Shown here piece by piece: positions 2,957 through 22,748 of a stretch of DNA of 52,571 nt. The notes beneath the pieces are model-generated. The model did no database searches and was not told the DNA's origin. It saw nothing but the letters and a program-made list of their open reading frames with translations. The DNA is from a virus. Lineage: Duplodnaviria > Caudoviricetes. The DNA is taken from positions 1 through 52,571 of IMG/VR virus record IMGVR_UViG_3300032893_000065; one strand, 5' to 3'. A program made the position numbers and the translations under genes. Each line of letters opens with the position of its first letter. Positions within the stretch are counted from its first letter, which is position 1.

Positions 2957-3355
2957 TTACTCCATCCAGGCCACGCAACCGTTGGCACACGATGCGTGTA
3001 CGTGTCCGTTGTAGGCTACGGTGAATCGCAGCGCCTTGTCTTTCTGGCAAACCGGGCACTGGATGGCTCCATGATCGAGCCTGGTTGCGATGATCGCCTT
3101 GCGCGCCTTCCGGATACGCTCCATCCCGCGATTGCTTTCCTCAACCTGCGCCTGGACCTCTTCCGGCGTTGGGAACAGCCGAAACTCGCACCCGACCCCG
3201 CTCTTCTCGGCCTCGTCCTTGAAACAGGGGAGCGCACCGAGCTTCTTCCCCTTCTGCAGGTCGGCATAGGTGACGCCGGCCTTGCACTTGTCGTTTTGGG
3301 TTCCGTTGAAGTGTTCGCACCGATTCGCGATCTGCTCGGCAAGGGTCTTCATCAT
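2957..3355 (-). CDS. Cys/His-rich hypothetical phage protein
   Basis: CEHFNG..C; CPVC; NGHVHASC..GC; ATGA coupling with upstream gene. Confidence 0.75.
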   Translation of the reverse strand: MMKTLAEQIANRCEHFNGTQNDKCKAGVTYADLQKGKKLGALPCFKDEAEKSGVGCEFRLFPTPEEVQAQVEESNRGMERIRKARKAIIATRLDHGAIQCPVCQKDKALRFTVAYNGHVHASCANGCVAWME

Positions 3356-3456
3356 CGTCGGCTCCAGTAGACGGCGAGGCCCTGAAGGATGAGCATCGAG
3401 AGGAGGGCGCAGACCACGAAGGTCTTGACGACGGCATCCCAGTCGAGCGGGCTCAT
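3352..3456 (-). CDS. 34-aa single-pass membrane peptide (not in ORF track)
   Basis: MSPLDWDAVVKTFVVCALLSMLILQGLAVYWSRR; ATGA overlaps at both ends. Confidence 0.6.
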   Translation of the reverse strand: MSPLDWDAVVKTFVVCALLSMLILQGLAVYWSRR

Positions 3457-3755
3457 GTCAGCGCCGCCTTCGCCTTGCGGATAGCCTCTTGCGTTCTGCG
3501 GATAGCCTCTTGACCCCGGGCGAGGACCGCTCTCGTCTGGCGATCGAGCCGCTCCGGGTGCTCATAGACGACGTGGCTCATGTTCGCGTCGAAGTACAAG
3601 ACACTCGCACAGTTGATGCACAGGGAGAGGTCGCCAGGCTTTGGCCGCGGATCGTTGTTGTCTGGCATCGAGGTACACGCATCGAAGTGATACCCGCAGA
3701 CGGGGCACTTGCTATCCGGCAGCGCGGTCTCGACCATCTCGGCCATGTCGGGCAT
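3453..3755 (-). CDS. Zn-ribbon hypothetical protein
   Basis: CPVC and PKPGDLSLCINC motifs; start uncertain. Confidence 0.65.
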   Translation of the reverse strand: MPDMAEMVETALPDSKCPVCGYHFDACTSMPDNNDPRPKPGDLSLCINCASVLYFDANMSHVVYEHPERLDRQTRAVLARGQEAIRRTQEAIRKAKAALT

Positions 3756-3808
3756 CCTAGCGACGCGACGCTTGACTGTCAAGCAACGCAGCGGTAGGCT
3801 CCTCTTCG

Positions 3809-4021
3809 ATGGACCCAGCGAAGCGACTCGGGGAGCGTATCAGGGCAGCCCGACATCGGCGCGGCCTTACCCTCACCGCGCTCGCGGACAAGTGCAGCAT
3901 GGATAAGGCCCAACTCTCACGCATTGAGCAGGGCCAGCAGGAGCCCACCCTTGCCCGCCTCCGTTCCCTGGCGAGGGCTCTCGATGTCTCCCTGTTCCGA
4001 CTTCTGTGGAAGGGACCATGA
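3809..4021 (+). CDS. XRE/Cro-like HTH regulator
   Basis: LGERIRAAR..GLT..LA....SRIEQG...PTL..L..LARALDV; at the divergence point of two operons. Confidence 0.9.
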   Translation: MDPAKRLGERIRAARHRRGLTLTALADKCSMDKAQLSRIEQGQQEPTLARLRSLARALDVSLFRLLWKGP

Positions 4022-18147: not shown

Positions 18148-18639
18148 TCACTCCGAGAGCTTCACCGTCGTGTTGAAGTTCTCCGCATACATCGAAATGC
18201 AGTACCCGCACTTGAGAGACCCCGGTACGGTCGGGATGTGGCGGTAGCACTCGCAAGGCCAGTCCCACTCTTCGGCCATCCGATGGATGACCGGAATGAT
18301 CGCGCTGTCATTCTCTGCCAGGGCGCGCTCGATGCAAACGTCGCGGGAGGCCTCGATGACCTTCCACTCGACGGCGCCTTCGTAGCGAGTCGTCCACTCC
18401 TTGCGGCGCTTCTCCGTGACGTTCGTCGCGTCCACGACGATGCGCTCGTGGCCGGCGAGACGGAGGGCCTCGACCATGGTGAAGGCCATGGCCCACACGT
18501 AGGGCTCGGCCGGGGCATAGAAGCGGTGCCCGTGCAGAGCGAGGCGGATCGAGTCGGGGTTCACGATGGGCCAGCCGGTGGTCTTGGCCCAGGAGGTCTT
18601 GCCGGATCGCGGGAGGCCGACGGTGACGTAGAGCTTCAT
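18148..18639 (-). CDS. P-loop kinase, AAA_33 / polynucleotide kinase-like
   Basis: VGLPRSGKTSWA, NPDSIR, IVVDATN...RR, CIERA: pattern of the T4 PNK-type kinase domain; no phosphatase domain. Confidence 0.85.
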   Translation of the reverse strand: MKLYVTVGLPRSGKTSWAKTTGWPIVNPDSIRLALHGHRFYAPAEPYVWAMAFTMVEALRLAGHERIVVDATNVTEKRRKEWTTRYEGAVEWKVIEASRDVCIERALAENDSAIIPVIHRMAEEWDWPCECYRHIPTVPGSLKCGYCISMYAENFNTTVKLSE

Positions 18640-19470: not shown

Positions 19471-19623
19471 TCATGGCAACCCTCGCATCAGAGCCACGCT
19501 CCAGGCCACAGCAGCAGAGGACCATCCGAGAACGCCCGCGAGACTACGGCTCCAGGCCTGTAGACCGACGTTTAGGAGACACAGCGCGATGAGGCCGATG
19601 TCTGTTGCGAGTTTCCACGTCAT
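19471..19623 (-). CDS. Small two-helix membrane protein
   Basis: MTWKLATDIGLIALCLLNVGL..LAGVLGWSSAAVAWSVAL; ATGA-coupled. Confidence 0.55.
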   Translation of the reverse strand: MTWKLATDIGLIALCLLNVGLQAWSRSLAGVLGWSSAAVAWSVALMRGLP

Positions 19624-19733
19624 CGGATCACCCTTGGAACTCCCGGCGCATGCGGCTGATGTGGCGCTGGCCGCGATACCCAGATTCGTAGGCCGGCGAC
19701 CGTGACGAGTACAATGAGAATGAGAGCTTTCAT
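19620..19733 (-). CDS. 37-aa membrane/signal peptide coupled to Ro60 stop (not in ORF track)
   Basis: MKALILIVLVTVAGLRIWVSRPAPHQPHAPGVPRVIR; ATGA overlaps at both ends. Confidence 0.55.
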   Translation of the reverse strand: MKALILIVLVTVAGLRIWVSRPAPHQPHAPGVPRVIR

Positions 19734-21373
19734 CCCCGGATGAAGTCCGCCAGGAGCGCCGGGGCGGAAGCATCGAAGCCCACGAAGTCCATCATTCCGA
19801 AATCGTTCGGATCCGCGATCGTGAACTCGTTCGCGGTGAAGGCCACGACCGCCAGCTTCGCCGGGATCTTCTGGTGCTCCCGGTAGCGCTGGAGCGCCTG
19901 CGTCGGGTGCATCGTGCCGGCCCAGGTCTCCGAGTCCGTGTAGACGACGAAGGCATCCACCTGAGTGTCATGCTGGTCGGCCCAGATCATCGGTAGGGCG
20001 CAGTCGGTTCCCCCGAAGGGGAACCTCTGCATGATCTTCACTGCGTCGTCCAGCCGGGTCTTCGGGGAGATCGGGACCTGGACGAGCCGCTCAGCGAAGG
20101 CGAGCATCCCGTACTGCGGCTCGGTGCGAGCCGTGACCATCGCCATCGCCGCCGCGGCCTCGCGGCATGTGAGCGGCGTGCCGGCGACCGAGCCTCCGTC
20201 CATGGAACTGGAGACGTCGATCGCTAGCAGGGTTCGCATCCCGGTCGGAACGATGTGCTGGAAGCTCTCGTAGAAGGCATCGTTCAGGGCATCGATCACC
20301 TTGGGCGAGGGCTGCCAGGTGAGGCTGCCCCGGATTCCGCGGCCCCCGGAGTAGACCGACTGCGCGAGCAGGATCCCGAGAGGGTGAACGCGGGCCTTCT
20401 TCATGCCCTCCTTGTTCGCGAGCCGGGAGACGACGTAGCTCTCGGCCGCGGACATGGGCGCGAGGAGGCCGATCGAAGCCATCTTCCCGAGGTTCCGGAT
20501 CATGGCCGTATACGGCATCCCCTGCCCGGACATGAGCAGCGCCTCCCAAACCTCGGGGGAGTTGAGGAGGTTCGTCGGCACGCACTCCCTCGGAATCCCG
20601 TACTGCGCGATGAGAGAGGCCGCCTCCAGCGGGCTGGGCGCTGCCTGCATGCGCTCGAAACCCTTGATGATCTCCGGGAGAGCATCGGGAACCGCGGGGT
20701 ACTTGTCGATGCGCTCGCCTCTCTTCGTAGCCCGCTTCACCTCGAAGGCGTCGGGCTTCCCGTGGGTCACCCAGCGGTAGATCGGGCCGCGCTCCACCTG
20801 GGAGACGGGGTGGGCCTTGCGGAGGAGATCCCGGTGGGACCAGCCGTTCCGCTGCTGGTACTTCACGGTCATCAGGGCGAGGGGATCCGCCCGGTAGTTC
20901 TCGTACCAGTTTCGGATGGCGCGCCGGGTCACCGGGCCCCAGCCGCCGAAAGCCTTCACGTTCTCGGCAAGCTGGAAGATGTGAGTGCCGATGCGGCAGA
21001 CCTTGGGGGTCATCGCCGCGGCGAGCCGGCGAGTCTCCTCGTCTCCATGCTTGAGGCACATGGCGAGCGCGAAGATGGCCGGGTCGTTCTTGGGGGCGAG
21101 AGCCTGGTCCGAGACGTCTACGATCCGGCGCACGACTCGCGGGCCGTCGATCTTGATGAGGCCGAGAACGCCCTCCGCGTTCTTCGCCGTGAGCTTCTTC
21201 TCGTCCGCGTAGTAGGAGCCCTTCTCGCTCCCGAGGATGAGGAAGCGGTCGAGCATCTGCCAGGGCGAGACGGCGAAGGAGAAGCCGCCGGCAGAGTTCG
21301 GGACCTGCGCGGAGCCAGGGATCTTCTCGGTCTGGGGAGTCTTGCGAGTCGAGTAGAGCCGTCCGTAATCCAT
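19730..21373 (-). CDS. rsr: Ro60-related RNA-binding protein (TROVE + vWA)
   Basis: NSAGG..LDRFLILGSE.GSYY; RIGTHIF; KYQQRNGWSHRDLLRKAHP; MIRNLGKM; RVHP; MIDAS DVSSSM, GGTDCALPM, YTDSETW; GFD; GGAGG RBS. Confidence 0.97.
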   Translation of the reverse strand: MDYGRLYSTRKTPQTEKIPGSAQVPNSAGGFSFAVSPWQMLDRFLILGSEKGSYYADEKKLTAKNAEGVLGLIKIDGPRVVRRIVDVSDQALAPKNDPAIFALAMCLKHGDEETRRLAAAMTPKVCRIGTHIFQLAENVKAFGGWGPVTRRAIRNWYENYRADPLALMTVKYQQRNGWSHRDLLRKAHPVSQVERGPIYRWVTHGKPDAFEVKRATKRGERIDKYPAVPDALPEIIKGFERMQAAPSPLEAASLIAQYGIPRECVPTNLLNSPEVWEALLMSGQGMPYTAMIRNLGKMASIGLLAPMSAAESYVVSRLANKEGMKKARVHPLGILLAQSVYSGGRGIRGSLTWQPSPKVIDALNDAFYESFQHIVPTGMRTLLAIDVSSSMDGGSVAGTPLTCREAAAAMAMVTARTEPQYGMLAFAERLVQVPISPKTRLDDAVKIMQRFPFGGTDCALPMIWADQHDTQVDAFVVYTDSETWAGTMHPTQALQRYREHQKIPAKLAVVAFTANEFTIADPNDFGMMDFVGFDASAPALLADFIRG

Positions 21374-21394
21374 TGGTTCCTCCGGTACAGGGAT

Positions 21395-21524
21395 GGGTCA
21401 AGCAAGTGATGTGGCTGCCGTTTGGTGCTCTACCACTGAGCTACGTCAGTCTCTCGACTGGCGACGGGAATTGAACCCGCGACCACCCTCTTGGCAGGAG
21501 AAGACAGCCACTTCGGCCTGACCC
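21395..21524 (-). ncRNA. yrlA: YrlA-type Y RNA with permuted tRNA-Gly(GCC)-like domain (unit Y1)
   Basis: Ro-binding stem GGGUCAGGCCGAAG / CACUUGCUUGACCC; upper stem GUGGCUGUC/GGCAGCCAC; T arm, closed acceptor stem, D arm; just upstream of Ro60. Confidence 0.9.
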
Positions 21525-21536
21525 TTTCCCAAAAAC

Positions 21537-21604
21537 GGATCGAGCAAGTAGCGATCGAGGGGTTTCCGGTTGCGAGAGGTAACCCTCAACCTTCGGCCCG
21601 ATCC
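21537..21604 (-). ncRNA. Short Y RNA-like unit Y2
   Basis: GGAUCGGGCCGAAGGUUGAGGGUUA...CCCUCGAUCGCUACUUGCUCGAUCC. Confidence 0.85.
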
Positions 21605-21614
21605 TTTCCGCGAG

Positions 21615-21686
21615 ACCGAGCAAGTGAGCGGTCGTGGGAGGTTCCTTAGCTGCGTGGCAGGGATAACCCATGACCTTCGGCCCGGT
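21615..21686 (-). ncRNA. Short Y RNA-like unit Y3
   Basis: ACCGGGCCGAAGGUCAUGGGUUA...CCCACGACCGCUCACUUGCUCGGU. Confidence 0.85.
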
Positions 21687-21697
21687 TCTTTCTACGA

Positions 21698-21803
21698 GAC
21701 TGAGCAAGTGATGGCCGTGGGAGATCCACCGACACGGGGTTGCCCCCGCCGTGTGGCAATCTCCTGAATGTGGAGACGGTAACCCACGACCTTCGGCCCA
21801 GTC
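21698..21803 (-). ncRNA. Y RNA-like unit Y4 with larger structured insert
   Basis: GACUGGGCCGAAGGUCGUGGGUUA...CCCACGGCCAUCACUUGCUCAGUC; internal GGGG-GCAA-CCCC and UCUCC/GGAGA hairpins. Confidence 0.85.
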
Positions 21804-21805
21804 CT

Positions 21806-21901
21806 TCACTTGTGCCTCGCCCCGAAGTCGTCTTCGAGAATGCAGGCCCAGATGTAGATGGCGAGGAAAAGAAGGATGAACCCGACGACCGCTCCTGCCA
21901 T
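21806..21901 (-). CDS. 31-aa single-pass membrane peptide inside Y RNA array (not in ORF track)
   Basis: MAGAVVGFILLFLAIYIWACILEDDFGARHK; GAGG RBS; fills the Y5-Y4 gap. Confidence 0.65.
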   Translation of the reverse strand: MAGAVVGFILLFLAIYIWACILEDDFGARHK

Positions 21902-21918
21902 AGCGGACCTCGATTCAA

Positions 21919-21981
21919 GAACGAGCAAGTGGATAGTCGAGGGGGATCGTCCAAGGATAACCCTCAACCTTCGGCCCGTTC
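21919..21981 (-). ncRNA. Short Y RNA-like unit Y5
   Basis: GAACGGGCCGAAGGUUGAGGGUUA...CCCUCGACUAUCCACUUGCUCGUUC. Confidence 0.85.
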
Positions 21982-21988
21982 GCGAAGC

Positions 21989-22017
21989 ACCCTAAGCCTA
22001 TTCATTCCGAATTGCAA
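21989..22017 (-). promoter_or_regulatory. Sigma70-type promoter for Y RNA-Ro60 operon
   Basis: TTGCAA (22017-22012), 17 nt, TAGGGT (21994-21989); predicted +1 falls at about the first G of Y5 (21981). Confidence 0.7.
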
Positions 22018-22088
22018 TCCCCGACATCGTCCCTCGCGGGTGTAAGCGTACTTCCACCCGGCTTTCGAGTAGGAACCGCGGAGGACGG

Positions 22089-22748
22089 ATGGCCGAAGTG
22101 ACTCCCGAACAGCCGAGTCAGGTCGTCGTGGGCGAAGACGACAAGCTGGAGTGGGTGGATTCCCGCTCGGAAGAAGAGCTACGGGAGGCCCTGGAGAGAG
22201 CGGAAGCCTACCGGATACGGCTCGGCAACGAGACCGATCGCGCCTTCGTCGTCTCCACATGGTCCCAGGGCTACTGGAAGGGCAGCCTTTGGGGTCATCG
22301 GGTGCGCTGGCAGCAGTTTGGACCCCGCATGCGGGTCATCTGCGACGGGATTTTGCAGCATGCGACGGTCATGGTGGCCTGTCCACCCGACGATCACGAG
22401 GAAATCCTAGGGTATATCGTCTTCCAGAGGCACTGGAAGCCGCCCAAGGGCCATCCTGAACCCATCGCAGGCGGTCTCGACCTCTTCCACTTCGCCTATG
22501 TGAAGCCTTTCGCCCGCTTGAAGGGCGTTTTTCGGGCACTTCTCGTCGCTTCGGGTCTTCCGGACCGCCTCCGGGGCGTGATCGTGACCTGTCCCACCCG
22601 ACTTTGGTTCTCGAACTCGAATTTCAGAGGTCTAGACGCCCGTTTTCCCGCGACAATCCATGATCCCTTCCTCCCGATGTACTACCTGAGGAACAATCCC
22701 TTCCCGAAGACGATCCCAATTCACCCGGACAGGAACAATGACATATAG
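22089..22748 (+). CDS. GNAT-like protein
   Basis: EILGYIV..LFHFAYVKPFARLKGVFRALL resembles acetyl-CoA-binding motif A; GGAGG RBS. Confidence 0.6.
   Translation: MAEVTPEQPSQVVVGEDDKLEWVDSRSEEELREALERAEAYRIRLGNETDRAFVVSTWSQGYWKGSLWGHRVRWQQFGPRMRVICDGILQHATVMVACPPDDHEEILGYIVFQRHWKPPKGHPEPIAGGLDLFHFAYVKPFARLKGVFRALLVASGLPDRLRGVIVTCPTRLWFSNSNFRGLDARFPATIHDPFLPMYYLRNNPFPKTIPIHPDRNNDI

What the first reader, a model, noticed from the sequence alone, without database searches (positions are those of the whole stretch)
19730..22017. Phage Ro60 preceded by a tandem array of five different Y RNAs
Seen: five units on the - strand share 5' GGCCGAAG and 3' ACUUGCU. Four continue 5' as GUYRNGGGUUA. Their terminal stems differ in sequence yet all pair (GAACG/CGUUC, GACUG/CAGUC, ACCG/CGGU, GGAUCG/CGAUCC, GGGUCA/UGACCC), which is covariation within the array, and each has a different apical insert. 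A TTGCAA-17-TAGGGT promoter would start at about unit Y5, and an intact TROVE-vWA gene follows. Established: Ro60 binds a bulged-C terminal helix of Y RNAs, whose other end acts as an effector or tether (e.g. to PNPase in Deinococcus); YrlA-type RNAs are known next to Ro in bacteria and some phages, usually one or two. Inference: a modular RNP system in which one phage Ro60 is given five alternative RNA adaptors or decoys. I do not know of a five-member phage array, but cannot check this.
Basis: partly seen in the sequence, partly recalled or inferred. Interest (0 to 1): 0.93.

Follow-up and report, generated by a model that had tools for sequence, protein, structure and literature searches.

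The report
Phage Ro60 gene with five Y RNAs
A complete uncultured phage genome carries an intact Ro60 RNA-binding protein gene preceded by five different small Y RNA genes in a row, a real but not unique arrangement, since similar and larger arrays sit beside Ro60 genes in many other phages and bacteria.

Summary
Five units on the - strand (21394-21982) share the Ro60-binding helix (GGCCGAAG ... ACUUGCU with a bulged C) and a 9-bp upper stem. They lie 6-111 nt apart, and the last ends 20 nt before an intact TROVE + vWA Ro60 gene (19730-21373). A covariance model built from four units found the held-out fifth and nothing else in the 52.6-kb genome. Within the array 97 of 99 pair cells are paired, and 11 of 20 pairs show double changes. 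Y1 is YrlA-like, and its core is called tRNA-Gly(GCC) once circularly permuted. Y2-Y5 resemble metazoan Y and nematode stem-bulge RNAs.

The interpretation, one Ro60 with several alternative Y RNAs, fits published two-RNA loci (M. smegmatis, Thermus phage phiLo). Binding and expression are untested, and the promoter match is no better than chance.

The novelty claim fails in the databases. A wider model gave 666 hits in 240 Ro60 loci, all on the Ro60 strand. Fifty loci had five or more units, with a maximum of 11. These include complete phage genomes and cultured phages Gilson and Forza.

I found no paper describing arrays larger than two in bacteria or phages, but the supplements were closed. 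This scan has noted such arrays before on other DNA.

The parts
21989..22017 (-). Promoter-like site TTGCAA-17 nt-TAGGGT. It would start transcription near the 5' end of Y5, in a roughly 105-bp gap between the array and a divergent + strand ORF that starts at 22089.
   Evidence: Exact match, but 1 match against 1.01 expected by chance at up to 2 mismatches. No sigma-70 consensus site was found. The position is plausible; function is inferred.
21917..21982 (-). Y5: a short (about 66 nt) stem-bulge Y RNA-like unit. Lower stem GAACGGGC/GCUCGUUC, upper stem GGUUGAGGG/CCCUCGACU, loop beginning UUAUCC.
   Evidence: R2 61.8 bits; R1 71.2 bits as a training member; Rfam RF01656 32.5 bits, below the gathering score of 38; fold z only -1.35.
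21806..21901 (-). 31-codon hydrophobic ORF with a GAGG upstream, filling the Y5-Y4 gap. Coding status unproven.
Evidence: ORF in the sequence; no Pfam family. Not followed up.
21696..21805 (-). Y4: a 110-nt unit with the same two stems. Its apical insert folds into two hairpins, one with a GCAA loop.
   Evidence: R2 53.6 bits; Rfam Y_RNA 31.7 and RF01656 33.2 bits, both below 38; fold z -4.8.
21612..21689 (-). Y3: a 78-nt stem-bulge unit. Upper stem GGUCAUGGG/CCCACGACC with one A-C mismatch.
   Evidence: R2 63.0 bits; Rfam RF01656 25.1 and Y_RNA 19.4 bits; fold z -2.3.
21536..21605 (-). Y2: a 70-nt stem-bulge unit, followed by GUUUUUGGG.
   Evidence: R2 63.2 bits; no Rfam match listed at E <= 10; fold z -2.5. 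The terminator scan does not call the U run.
21394..21525 (-). Y1: a 132-nt YrlA-type unit with the same Ro60-binding helix and a 9-bp upper stem. It ends 20 nt before the Ro60 start codon.
   Evidence: Held out of R1 and found at 32.9 bits, E 1.8e-6; R2 39.9 bits; Rfam YrlA 43 bits, E 4e-8, below the gathering score of 69; fold z -4.0.
21426..21502 (-). tRNA-like core of Y1, in the order anticodon-like arm (loop CUGCCAA), 5-nt variable region, T arm, capped acceptor stem (GAGA loop), U-A, D arm. This is a circularly permuted tRNA broken at position 26/27.
   Evidence: After permutation inside a script, ARAGORN calls tRNA-Gly(gcc). The unpermuted and doubled forms give none. T and D arms are aligned to the YrlA model. 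ARAGORN finds no tRNA in the native window.
19730..21373 (-). Ro60 (Rsr) gene, 547 aa, intact: TROVE ring plus vWA domain with the DxSxS metal-site motif (DVSSS).
   Evidence: Pfam vWA_Ro60 5.3e-65 and TROVE 2.1e-39. PDB sequence matches: Xenopus Ro60 1YVP 4.5e-123, human RO60 9NEN 4.5e-121, D. radiodurans Rsr 2NVO 2.3e-116, all nearly full length. D386, S388 and S390 are invariant in 28 homologues.
18148..18639 (-). Context: a P-loop polynucleotide-kinase-like gene on the same strand, 1.1 kb downstream of Ro60.
   Evidence: phrog_505 'polynucleotide kinase' 2.3e-14; Pfam AAA_33 1.4e-10. No RtcB or RNA_ligase family hit in the genome.

Best explanation
This is a canonical Ro60/Y RNA module of a tailed phage with an enlarged RNA set. 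Five paralogous Y RNA genes head a leftward transcription unit that runs straight into the Ro60 gene.

Most likely the array and the Ro60 mRNA are made as one precursor, as published for M. smegmatis YrlA/YrlB. The precursor would then be cut in the 6-10-nt spacers into five stable RNAs.

Each RNA would bind the outer face of the Ro60 ring through the shared helix: 5' GG(G/A)... GGC-[C]-GA paired with 3' UU-GCU.., with a bulged C. The five differ in the distal part of the lower stem and in the apical module. The differing stems would stop neighbouring units from mispairing in the precursor. The apical modules are:
- Y1: a permuted tRNA-Gly(GCC)-like domain (YrlA type).
- Y4: a two-hairpin junction.
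- Y2, Y3 and Y5: near-minimal hairpins of the metazoan Y / nematode stem-bulge RNA type (RUGGG/CCCAY upper stem, UUAYC loop start).

One phage Ro60 would thus form up to five different particles. The apical module would gate the ring or tether it to different partners. Host PNPase is the documented partner in Deinococcus, Salmonella and Thermus phage phiLo, and tRNA-handling enzymes are candidates for Y1. The particles would serve degradation, quality control or repair of structured RNA during infection.

Shown here by computation: the units, the shared helix, the covariation, the linkage to Ro60 and its strand, and the intact Ro60. Taken from papers: Ro60 binds this helix, Y RNAs act as tethers, and precursors are processed. 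Inferred: co-transcription, processing, binding of all five, and different partners.
For: -: exactly five units in the genome, with the held-out Y1 recovered at E 1.8e-6.
- 98% of 99 pair cells paired, 11 of 20 pairs with double changes, and slid controls at 31-50%.
- on 102 units from the window and 77 other loci, 96.1% paired against 40-45% slid, and 18 of 20 pairs with double changes.
- 666 of 666 R2 hits (E <= 0.01) in 240 Ro60 loci lie on the Ro60 strand.
- a motif scan that uses no model gives 136 units on the Ro60 strand against 8 on the other.
- Y1 aligns end to end with Rfam YrlA (43 bits, E 4e-8). Y4, Y5 and Y3 align with Y_RNA and the nematode stem-bulge family RF01656.
- the Y1 core is called tRNA-Gly(gcc) after permutation.
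- Ro60 is intact, full-length homologous to solved Ro60 structures, and keeps the metal-site motif.
- no terminator-like site on the - strand between 19000 and 22600.
- spacers of 6, 6 and 10 nt, and 20 nt from Y1 to the Ro60 ATG.
- Papers: Chen 2014 (PMC4201824, passages and sections 5 and 6) gives the GNCGAAN0-1G motif, the PNPase tether and M. smegmatis YrlA/YrlB 'processed from a single precursor' upstream of rsr. PMC12135203 (passages) reports that phiLo Ro60 binds two upstream Yrl RNAs and forms complexes with host PNPase.
Against: - No unit reaches an Rfam gathering score.
- Y2 has no Rfam match at all, and the Y5 fold is not better than shuffles (z -1.35).
- Y2-Y5 match R1 by construction, and R2 includes them among its 102 training sequences.
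- The alignments used for pair counts are fitted to the model.
- The promoter match is at chance level and no sigma-70 site was found.
- Nothing here shows transcription, processing, stability or Ro60 binding.
- The phage encodes no RNA ligase of the RtcB or Rnl families, so a self-contained repair pathway is not evident.
- The partners of the apical modules are unknown.
Confidence: 0.78

Rival explanations
1. The units act mainly in cis. They are Ro60-binding sites in the leader of the Ro60 mRNA, and the protein uses them to feed back on its own translation or stability. They are not stable trans-acting RNAs.
For: All five lie in the presumed 5' leader. Y1 ends 20 nt before the start codon and about 10 nt before the GGAGG ribosome-binding site. 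No separate promoters or terminators were found inside the array.
Against: In many related loci the units lie downstream of Ro60 (for example L030, L021 and L044, and L219, L236 and L240). In others they are separated from Ro60 by tRNA genes (Gilson and Forza), where a leader role is impossible. The M. smegmatis upstream Y RNAs are processed into stable Rsr-bound RNAs (Chen 2014). Five different apical modules are not needed for feedback. The two roles could coexist.
Confidence: 0.08
2. The RNAs are decoys rather than adaptors. The tRNA-Gly-like Y1 and the hairpins soak up host factors, such as tRNA-cleaving defence nucleases, host Ro60 or PNPase. The phage Ro60 mainly stabilises them.
For: Y1 carries a complete anticodon-like loop CUGCCAA and is called tRNA-Gly(gcc) when permuted, whereas S. 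Typhimurium YrlA lacks an anticodon loop (bioRxiv 312249 passage). Phage Ro60 loci are often embedded in tRNA gene arrays. A polynucleotide-kinase-like gene lies downstream.
Against: There is no direct evidence. This phage has no tRNA genes and no RNA ligase. The short units carry no obvious mimic. The documented role of bacterial and phage Y RNAs is as tether or gate.
Confidence: 0.1
3. The units are decaying tRNA-derived or repeat sequences with no function of their own, and they lie beside Ro60 by chance.
For: Y1 fits the published idea that YrlA arose from a dimeric tRNA transcript (bioRxiv 312249 passage). No unit passes an Rfam gathering score.
Against: Compensatory changes keep both stems. 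All 666 of 666 hits in 240 loci are on the Ro60 strand. The helix motif is nearly invariant across distant loci.
Confidence: 0.02

Closest known systems
Mycobacterium smegmatis rsr locus: YrlA and YrlB upstream of Rsr (Chen et al. 2014, PMC4201824)
   Same: The Y RNAs are encoded directly upstream of Ro60 on the same strand, and are reported to be processed from a single precursor. There is one tRNA-like YrlA plus a hairpin-type RNA, and both carry the GNCGAAN0-1G motif (passages).
   Different: The published locus has two RNAs; this one has five. Here the tRNA-like unit is the one next to Ro60, and it has a hairpin with a canonical 7-nt anticodon-like loop. Nothing here is experimentally shown.
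Thermus phage phiLo Ro60 with Yrl1 and Yrl2 (PMC12135203)
   Same: A phage-encoded Ro60 with Y RNA-like genes upstream. These RNAs have the stem-bulge-stem design with the CGAA motif, bind Ro60, and form ternary complexes with host PNPase in that paper (passages).
   Different: phiLo has two RNAs rather than five. The phiLo protein did not appear among the PDB sequence matches to this Ro60 at E <= 0.001, so the two proteins are distant.
Deinococcus radiodurans Rsr with Yrn1/Yrn2 (RYPER) and Salmonella YrlA/YrlB
   Same: Ro60 sits with at least two Y RNAs encoded nearby on the same strand. [quoted passage not shown]
   Different: These are cellular, stress-induced systems with two validated Y RNAs each. 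In D. radiodurans four small RNAs lie upstream, and two of them bind weakly.
Metazoan Y RNAs (Rfam RF00019) and nematode stem-bulge RNAs (Rfam RF01656; CeN72 and CeN74-2 are sbRNAs, PMC8477234 passages)
   Same: They share the lower helix with a bulged C, an upper stem with RUGGG/CCCAY, and a loop that starts UUAUC. Y4, Y5 and Y3 align end to end with these models. Ten short units in 20 related loci pass the RF01656 gathering score.
   Different: The window's own units score below both thresholds (31.7, 33.2, 32.5 and 25.1 against 38). They are phage-encoded and sit in an operon with Ro60, not separate Pol III genes. A 2015 review states that bacterial Y RNAs are not homologous to vertebrate ones (PMC4726728 passage).

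Membership tests
Ro60 / Rsr (TROVE + vWA ring protein) | TROVE (HEAT-repeat ring) and Ro60-type vWA domains above the curated cut-offs, full length | tested here: met
   vWA_Ro60 218.8 bits (cut-off 27.7) and TROVE 136.4 bits (cut-off 23). Residues 20-544 align to 12-533 of Xenopus Ro60 1YVP, E 4.5e-123.
Ro60 / Rsr (TROVE + vWA ring protein) | Metal-ion site motif DxSxS in the vWA domain | tested here: met
   DVSSS is read from the sequence. D386, S388 and S390 are invariant in the 28-sequence alignment.
Y RNA in the broad sense (Ro60 partner RNAs) | Encoded next to Ro60 on the same strand | tested here: met
   The five units lie 20-610 nt upstream of the Ro60 start codon on the - strand. The same linkage holds for 666 of 666 hits in 240 loci.
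Y RNA in the broad sense (Ro60 partner RNAs) | Terminal helix formed by the 5' and 3' ends, carrying the conserved Ro60 site (GGNCCGA / GNCGAAN0-1G with a bulged C) | tested here: met
   GGCCGAAG and ACUUGCU are invariant in all five. The helix with an unpaired C is kept in 5 of 5 units and in 102 of 102 related units, where C is at the bulge in 97. The motif definition is from Chen 2014.
Y RNA in the broad sense (Ro60 partner RNAs) | Bound and stabilised by Ro60, and present as a discrete small RNA | not testable with these tools
   No RNA data were available for this DNA. This needs Northern blots, small-RNA sequencing and immunoprecipitation or gel-shift assays.
Rfam Y_RNA (RF00019) | Score at or above the gathering threshold of 38 bits | tested here: not met
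   Best is Y4 at 31.7 bits, then Y3 at 19.4 bits. There are no matches at gathering level.
Rfam YrlA (RF02553) | Score at or above the gathering threshold of 69 bits | tested here: not met
   Y1 scores 43 bits, E 4.1e-8, matching the full model 1-114, with a 13-nt insertion where the extra hairpin lies.
Rfam YrlA (RF02553) | tRNA-like domain with a T arm, a capped acceptor-like stem and a D arm between the strands of the Ro60-binding stem | tested here: met
   The T arm, the hairpin between the arms and the D arm align to the model. The permuted core is called tRNA-Gly(gcc) by ARAGORN.
Rfam nematode stem-bulge RNA family (RF01656) | Score at or above the gathering threshold of 38 bits | tested here: not met
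   The window's units score 33.2 (Y4), 32.5 (Y5) and 25.1 (Y3). Ten units in 20 related loci, chosen for high model scores, do pass at 38.1-50.2 bits.

The most novel reading that the evidence does not exclude
Large mixed Y RNA arrays of 5 to 11 units are a general but undescribed property of Ro60 loci in phages and bacteria. Their short units are true homologues of metazoan Y RNAs and nematode stem-bulge RNAs: same Ro helix, same RUGGG/CCCAY upper stem, same UUAYC loop start.

If so, the Ro60/Y RNA particle moved between viruses, bacteria and animals as a protein-plus-RNA unit. The published view that bacterial Y RNAs are not homologous to the metazoan ones would be wrong. Phage Ro60 would work as a multiplexed platform whose specificity is set by whichever array member is loaded.
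Probability: 0.35. Interest if true: 0.7.

Novelty: new member of a known kind. Interest (0 to 1): 0.45.

Why it matters
What Ro60/Y RNA particles do in bacteria and phages is still largely open. Published prokaryotic and phage cases have two Y RNAs per locus.

This 52.6-kb phage offers a compact, complete test case on 2.3 kb of DNA: one Ro60 and five clearly different partner RNAs. One is a full permuted tRNA-Gly mimic, one is a junction RNA, and three are near-minimal hairpins. The fragment could be expressed and dissected directly to ask which RNAs load, which partners each brings, and whether loading competes.

The wider scan done here matters more than the single locus. It shows that arrays of five or more are common beside Ro60: 50 of 240 loci. 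Many short units are close enough to animal Y and stem-bulge RNAs to pass an Rfam threshold built from nematode sequences. That bears on the origin of Y RNAs.

None of these RNAs is annotated in the cultured-phage records I inspected.

Tried and rejected
- **Rfam at gathering thresholds on the whole window.** No match. Only the E-value mode gave the sub-threshold matches.
- **ARAGORN on the native window.** No tRNA or tmRNA. Unpermuted Y1 and the doubled apical region also gave none.
- **Promoter and terminator scan.** No promoter. The three terminator-like sites are all on the + strand and within the shuffle expectation.
One match against 1.01 expected, so I do not count it as evidence.
- **The search for related loci with the single Ro60 protein.** No relatives in IMG/VR. 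An alignment of 28 homologues (A3) was needed.
- **MAFFT alignment of all five units.** It misplaced the Y1 upper stem, so I built R1 from Y2-Y5 only, with a structure I wrote by hand from the folds and the sequence.
- **First motif scan, allowing one mismatch.** It was noisy: 235 hits on the Ro60 strand against 91 on the other in 160 loci. The strict version is the one I rely on.
- **Expression.** No RNA holder is listed for 21380-22020. Three DNA runs hold it. I did not use read laying, because contigs of DNA runs cannot show RNA ends.
- **RNA repair context.** No RtcB and no RNA_ligase family match in the genome. Pfam and PHROGs name none of the other small genes around Ro60.
- **Literature.** Four searches found no description of arrays larger than two in bacteria or phages.
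  - Chen 2014 reports 355 putative YrlAs in 254 bacteria and 22 phages, and says loci with several were all listed in Supplemental Tables S1 and S2. I could not see those tables, and they may hold multi-copy loci.
  - The two Wolin-laboratory reviews (PMC10870794, PMC6047535) are not held, so a statement there cannot be excluded.
  - PMC10690425 (10,006 candidate viral structured RNAs) does not mention Ro60 or Y RNA in its main text.
  - PMC7824862 mentions the phage TROVE protein with 'a tRNA-like partner' only.
- **Not run.** Structure prediction and complex prediction, because sequence homology to solved Ro60 structures is already decisive and the complex tool does not take RNA.
- **How the per-locus counts were made.** I made them by hand from the tables, and they add up to the reported totals. 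Some loci are duplicates of one sequence in two records, with identical hit coordinates: L039/L040, L059/L072, L073/L074, L029/L035 and L011/L140. The 50 of 240 is therefore a slight overcount of independent loci, although none of these duplicates is in the five-or-more class.

Full report
**What the window is.** It is one IMG/VR virus record of 52,571 bases that CheckV rates as 100% complete. G+C is 64%. It encodes a large terminase, a portal protein and a RecT-like protein. It has no tRNA genes.

**The observation.** On the - strand there are five units that all contain GGCCGAAG near the 5' end and ACUUGCU near the 3' end. Y2-Y5 continue as GGU(U/C)(G/A)NGGGUUA. By model R2 the units are Y5 21917-21982, Y4 21696-21805, Y3 21612-21689, Y2 21536-21605 and Y1 21394-21525.
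- The gaps are 111 nt (Y5-Y4, holding a 31-codon ORF), 6, 6 and 10 nt.
- Y1 ends 20 nt before the start codon of a 547-aa ORF (19730-21373). That ORF matches Pfam vWA_Ro60 (5.3e-65) and TROVE (2.1e-39).
- The ORF aligns nearly end to end with solved Ro60 structures: Xenopus 1YVP at 4.5e-123, human 9NEN at 4.5e-121 and D. radiodurans 2NVO at 2.3e-116.
- The metal-site motif DxSxS is present (DVSSS), at positions that are invariant in 28 homologues.

**Is it more than chance?** Each unit folds with its two ends paired, an unpaired C, and a second 9-bp stem. The z-scores are -4.8, -4.0, -2.5, -2.3 and a weak -1.35 for Y5.
- I built covariance model R1 from Y2-Y5, with a structure written from these folds: 9-bp lower stem, bulged C, G-U and A-U, then a 9-bp upper stem.
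- In a filter-free scan of both strands of the genome, the four training units score 71-80 bits by construction. The held-out Y1 scores 32.9 bits (E 1.8e-6). The next best of 44 listed matches scores 10.8 bits (E about 1). The genome therefore holds exactly five, all in this array.
- On the five aligned to the model, 98.0% of 99 pair cells are standard pairs, against 31-50% when the 3' partners are slid. Eleven of 20 pairs change on both sides, and no shuffle of 500 reaches any measure. That alignment is fitted to the model, which favours it.

**What the units are.** Rfam names nothing at gathering level. Below it, the matches are:
- Y1 matches YrlA over the whole model (43 bits, E 4e-8, gathering score 69).
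- Y4 matches Y_RNA (31.7 bits) and the nematode family RF01656 (33.2 bits).
- Y5 matches RF01656 (32.5 bits).
- Y3 matches RF01656 (25.1 bits) and Y_RNA (19.4 bits). The gathering score for both families is 38.
- Y2 has no listed match.

RF01656 is named after CeN72 and CeN74-2, which are stem-bulge RNAs, the nematode homologues of Y RNAs (PMC8477234 and PMC4726728 passages).

The shared 5' motif fits both the GGUCCGA contacted by Xenopus Ro60 and the bacterial GNCGAAN0-1G motif (Chen 2014, section 6).

The apical part of Y1 (21426-21502) reads, in order: a 5-bp stem with the 7-nt loop CUGCCAA, five nucleotides, a T arm (loop UUCAAUU), a 7-bp stem capped by C-GAGA-G, UA, and a D arm. When I permuted it in a script so that the capped stem becomes the open acceptor stem, ARAGORN called tRNA-Gly(gcc). 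The native and doubled forms gave nothing. It differs from S. Typhimurium YrlA, which lacks an anticodon loop (bioRxiv 312249 passage). In Chen 2014 a hairpin at this place is read as a variable arm.

**Related loci.** I therefore aligned 28 homologues (A3) from the protein search, whose closest hits are 55-62% identical. With that alignment I fetched 80 IMG/VR loci, 80 metagenome loci and 80 genome loci, each with Ro60 on the + strand.
- R1 gave 106 and 157 hits at E <= 1 in the first two sets, every one on the + strand.
- I aligned 102 hits at E <= 1e-4, from 78 of the 161 sources then in hand. On that alignment 96.1% of 1,950 cells pair, against 40-45% when slid, and 18 of 20 pairs show double changes.
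- From this alignment I built R2.
- At E <= 0.01, R2 gives 170 hits in the IMG/VR loci, 217 in the metagenome loci and 279 in the genome loci. All 666 are on the Ro60 strand.
- A scan that uses no model (CGAA, CUU and a perfect 8-bp closing stem) gives 136 units on the Ro60 strand and 8 on the other in the same 240 loci.

**Array size elsewhere.** These are my hand tallies of the three tables.
- IMG/VR loci by number of hits:

| Hits per locus | 0 | 1 | 2 | 3 | 4 | 5 | 6 | 11 |
|---|---|---|---|---|---|---|---|---|
| Loci (of 80) | 20 | 11 | 17 | 15 | 12 | 3 | 1 | 1 |

  L081 has the 11.
- Seventeen of 80 metagenome loci have five or more, with a maximum of 8 in L147.
- Twenty-eight of 80 genome loci have five or more, with a maximum of 10 in L219, a Chloroflexota assembly.
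- L063, L054 and L042, with five units each, lie in complete records with direct terminal repeats and a terminase match.
- Nine cultured actinophage loci gave 29 hits at E <= 0.1, all on the Ro60 strand: Gilson 5 (among tRNA genes), Forza up to 7 (one overlaps an annotated tRNA), prophiT37-1 4 (weak), Bxz1 3, FuzzBuster 3, Cashline 2, BearBQ 2, Stanimal 2 and Pumpernickel 1.
- None of these is annotated in the records.

A five-member array is therefore ordinary in sequence space.

**Two classes of unit.** In the model-free scan, 54 of 79 short units (up to 95 nt) carry GGGUUAYC, and 40 of 57 long units carry a T-loop motif. In A5 the UU of this motif is present in 102 of 102 rows and the C in 100 of 102, but that set was selected with a model that contains the motif. 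Among 20 loci picked for high-scoring short units, 10 units pass the RF01656 gathering score. The other 67 matches are tRNAs on the same strand, and none is YrlA or Y_RNA. A 2015 review states that bacterial Y RNAs are not homologous to the vertebrate clades and lack the upper-stem similarity (PMC4726728 passages). These short units do have that similarity.

**How it most likely works.**
- The array opens a leftward unit that diverges from a + strand ORF at 22089.
- No terminator-like site lies on the - strand between 19000 and 22600.
- The spacers are tRNA-array-like.
- In M. smegmatis the two upstream Y RNAs are processed from one precursor.

From this I infer one precursor that carries five Y RNAs and the Ro60 message, cut into stable RNAs that each bind Ro60 through the shared helix. 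The differing distal stems would keep neighbours from mispairing. The differing apical modules would set the partner or gate the ring. PNPase is the documented partner in Deinococcus, Salmonella and phage phiLo. A polynucleotide-kinase-like gene lies 1.1 kb downstream, but there is no RtcB or Rnl-type ligase.

The promoter-like TTGCAA-17-TAGGGT site is real at 21989-22017 but is at chance level. Expression could not be examined, since no RNA holder is listed.

**Novelty.** The kind is known: Ro60 with neighbouring Y RNAs, including in phages (22 phages in Chen 2014; two RNAs in phiLo). What is beyond the papers I could read is the number of units, the anticodon-like arm of Y1 and the metazoan-like short units. 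Four literature searches found no description of larger arrays. However, the supplementary tables of Chen 2014 and two reviews were out of reach. The scan's own notebook lists many earlier reports of phage Ro60-type genes with RNA arrays on other DNA. I used these only as a lead.

**Verdict.** This is a new member of a known kind. The locus itself is moderately interesting, and the general pattern it belongs to is somewhat more so.

Noticed in passing
window 21806-21901 (-): A 31-codon ORF for a hydrophobic peptide, with a GAGG upstream, fills the only long gap in the array (Y5-Y4). Two more small hydrophobic ORFs follow Ro60 (19620-19733 and 19471-19773, -). No family match.
   Followed up: no
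window 18148-18639 (-): A P-loop polynucleotide-kinase-like gene (phrog_505 2e-14, Pfam AAA_33 1e-10) lies on the Ro60 strand 1.1 kb downstream. The genome has no RtcB or Rnl-type RNA ligase.
   Followed up: partly
window 21527-21535 (-), just after Y2: The closing stem of Y2 is followed by GUUUUUGGG. This may be a leaky stop that would make Y5-Y2 more abundant than Y1 and Ro60. The terminator scan does not call it.
   Followed up: no
L081 203-609 and 3118-3929 (IMG/VR contig of 97 kb): Eleven R2 hits on the Ro60 strand: three at 203-609 and eight back to back at 3118-3929, with mixed lengths of 71-141 nt. This was the largest array seen. The record has no terminase match and is rated 74% complete.
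   Followed up: partly
L219 3364-6543 and L236 3364-6359 (Chloroflexota / Anaerolineae assemblies): Ten and eight units, one upstream and the rest downstream of Ro60. Arrays are at least as large in bacterial genomes as in phages.
   Followed up: no
L133, L101, L088, L106, L084, L131; also L165 (Gilson) and L169 (Forza): Ro60 and its Y RNA units are often embedded in long same-strand tRNA gene arrays: 67 tRNA matches in 20 loci and annotated tRNAs. Four Rfam 'tRNA' matches are 123-135 nt long and probably span the T and D arms of tRNA-like Y units.
   Followed up: no
L160 171-281, L088 3866-3944, L161 6314-6384 and seven more: Short prokaryotic or phage units pass the gathering score of the nematode stem-bulge RNA family RF01656 (38.1-50.2 bits against 38). 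Rfam-based annotation would mislabel them as nematode RNAs.
   Followed up: partly
L191 2148-2707 (Desulfonema magnum strain 4be13 chromosome): The only cultured, complete bacterial genome among the 80 closest genome loci has two R2 hits upstream of its Ro60 gene. It is a possible laboratory handle.
   Followed up: no
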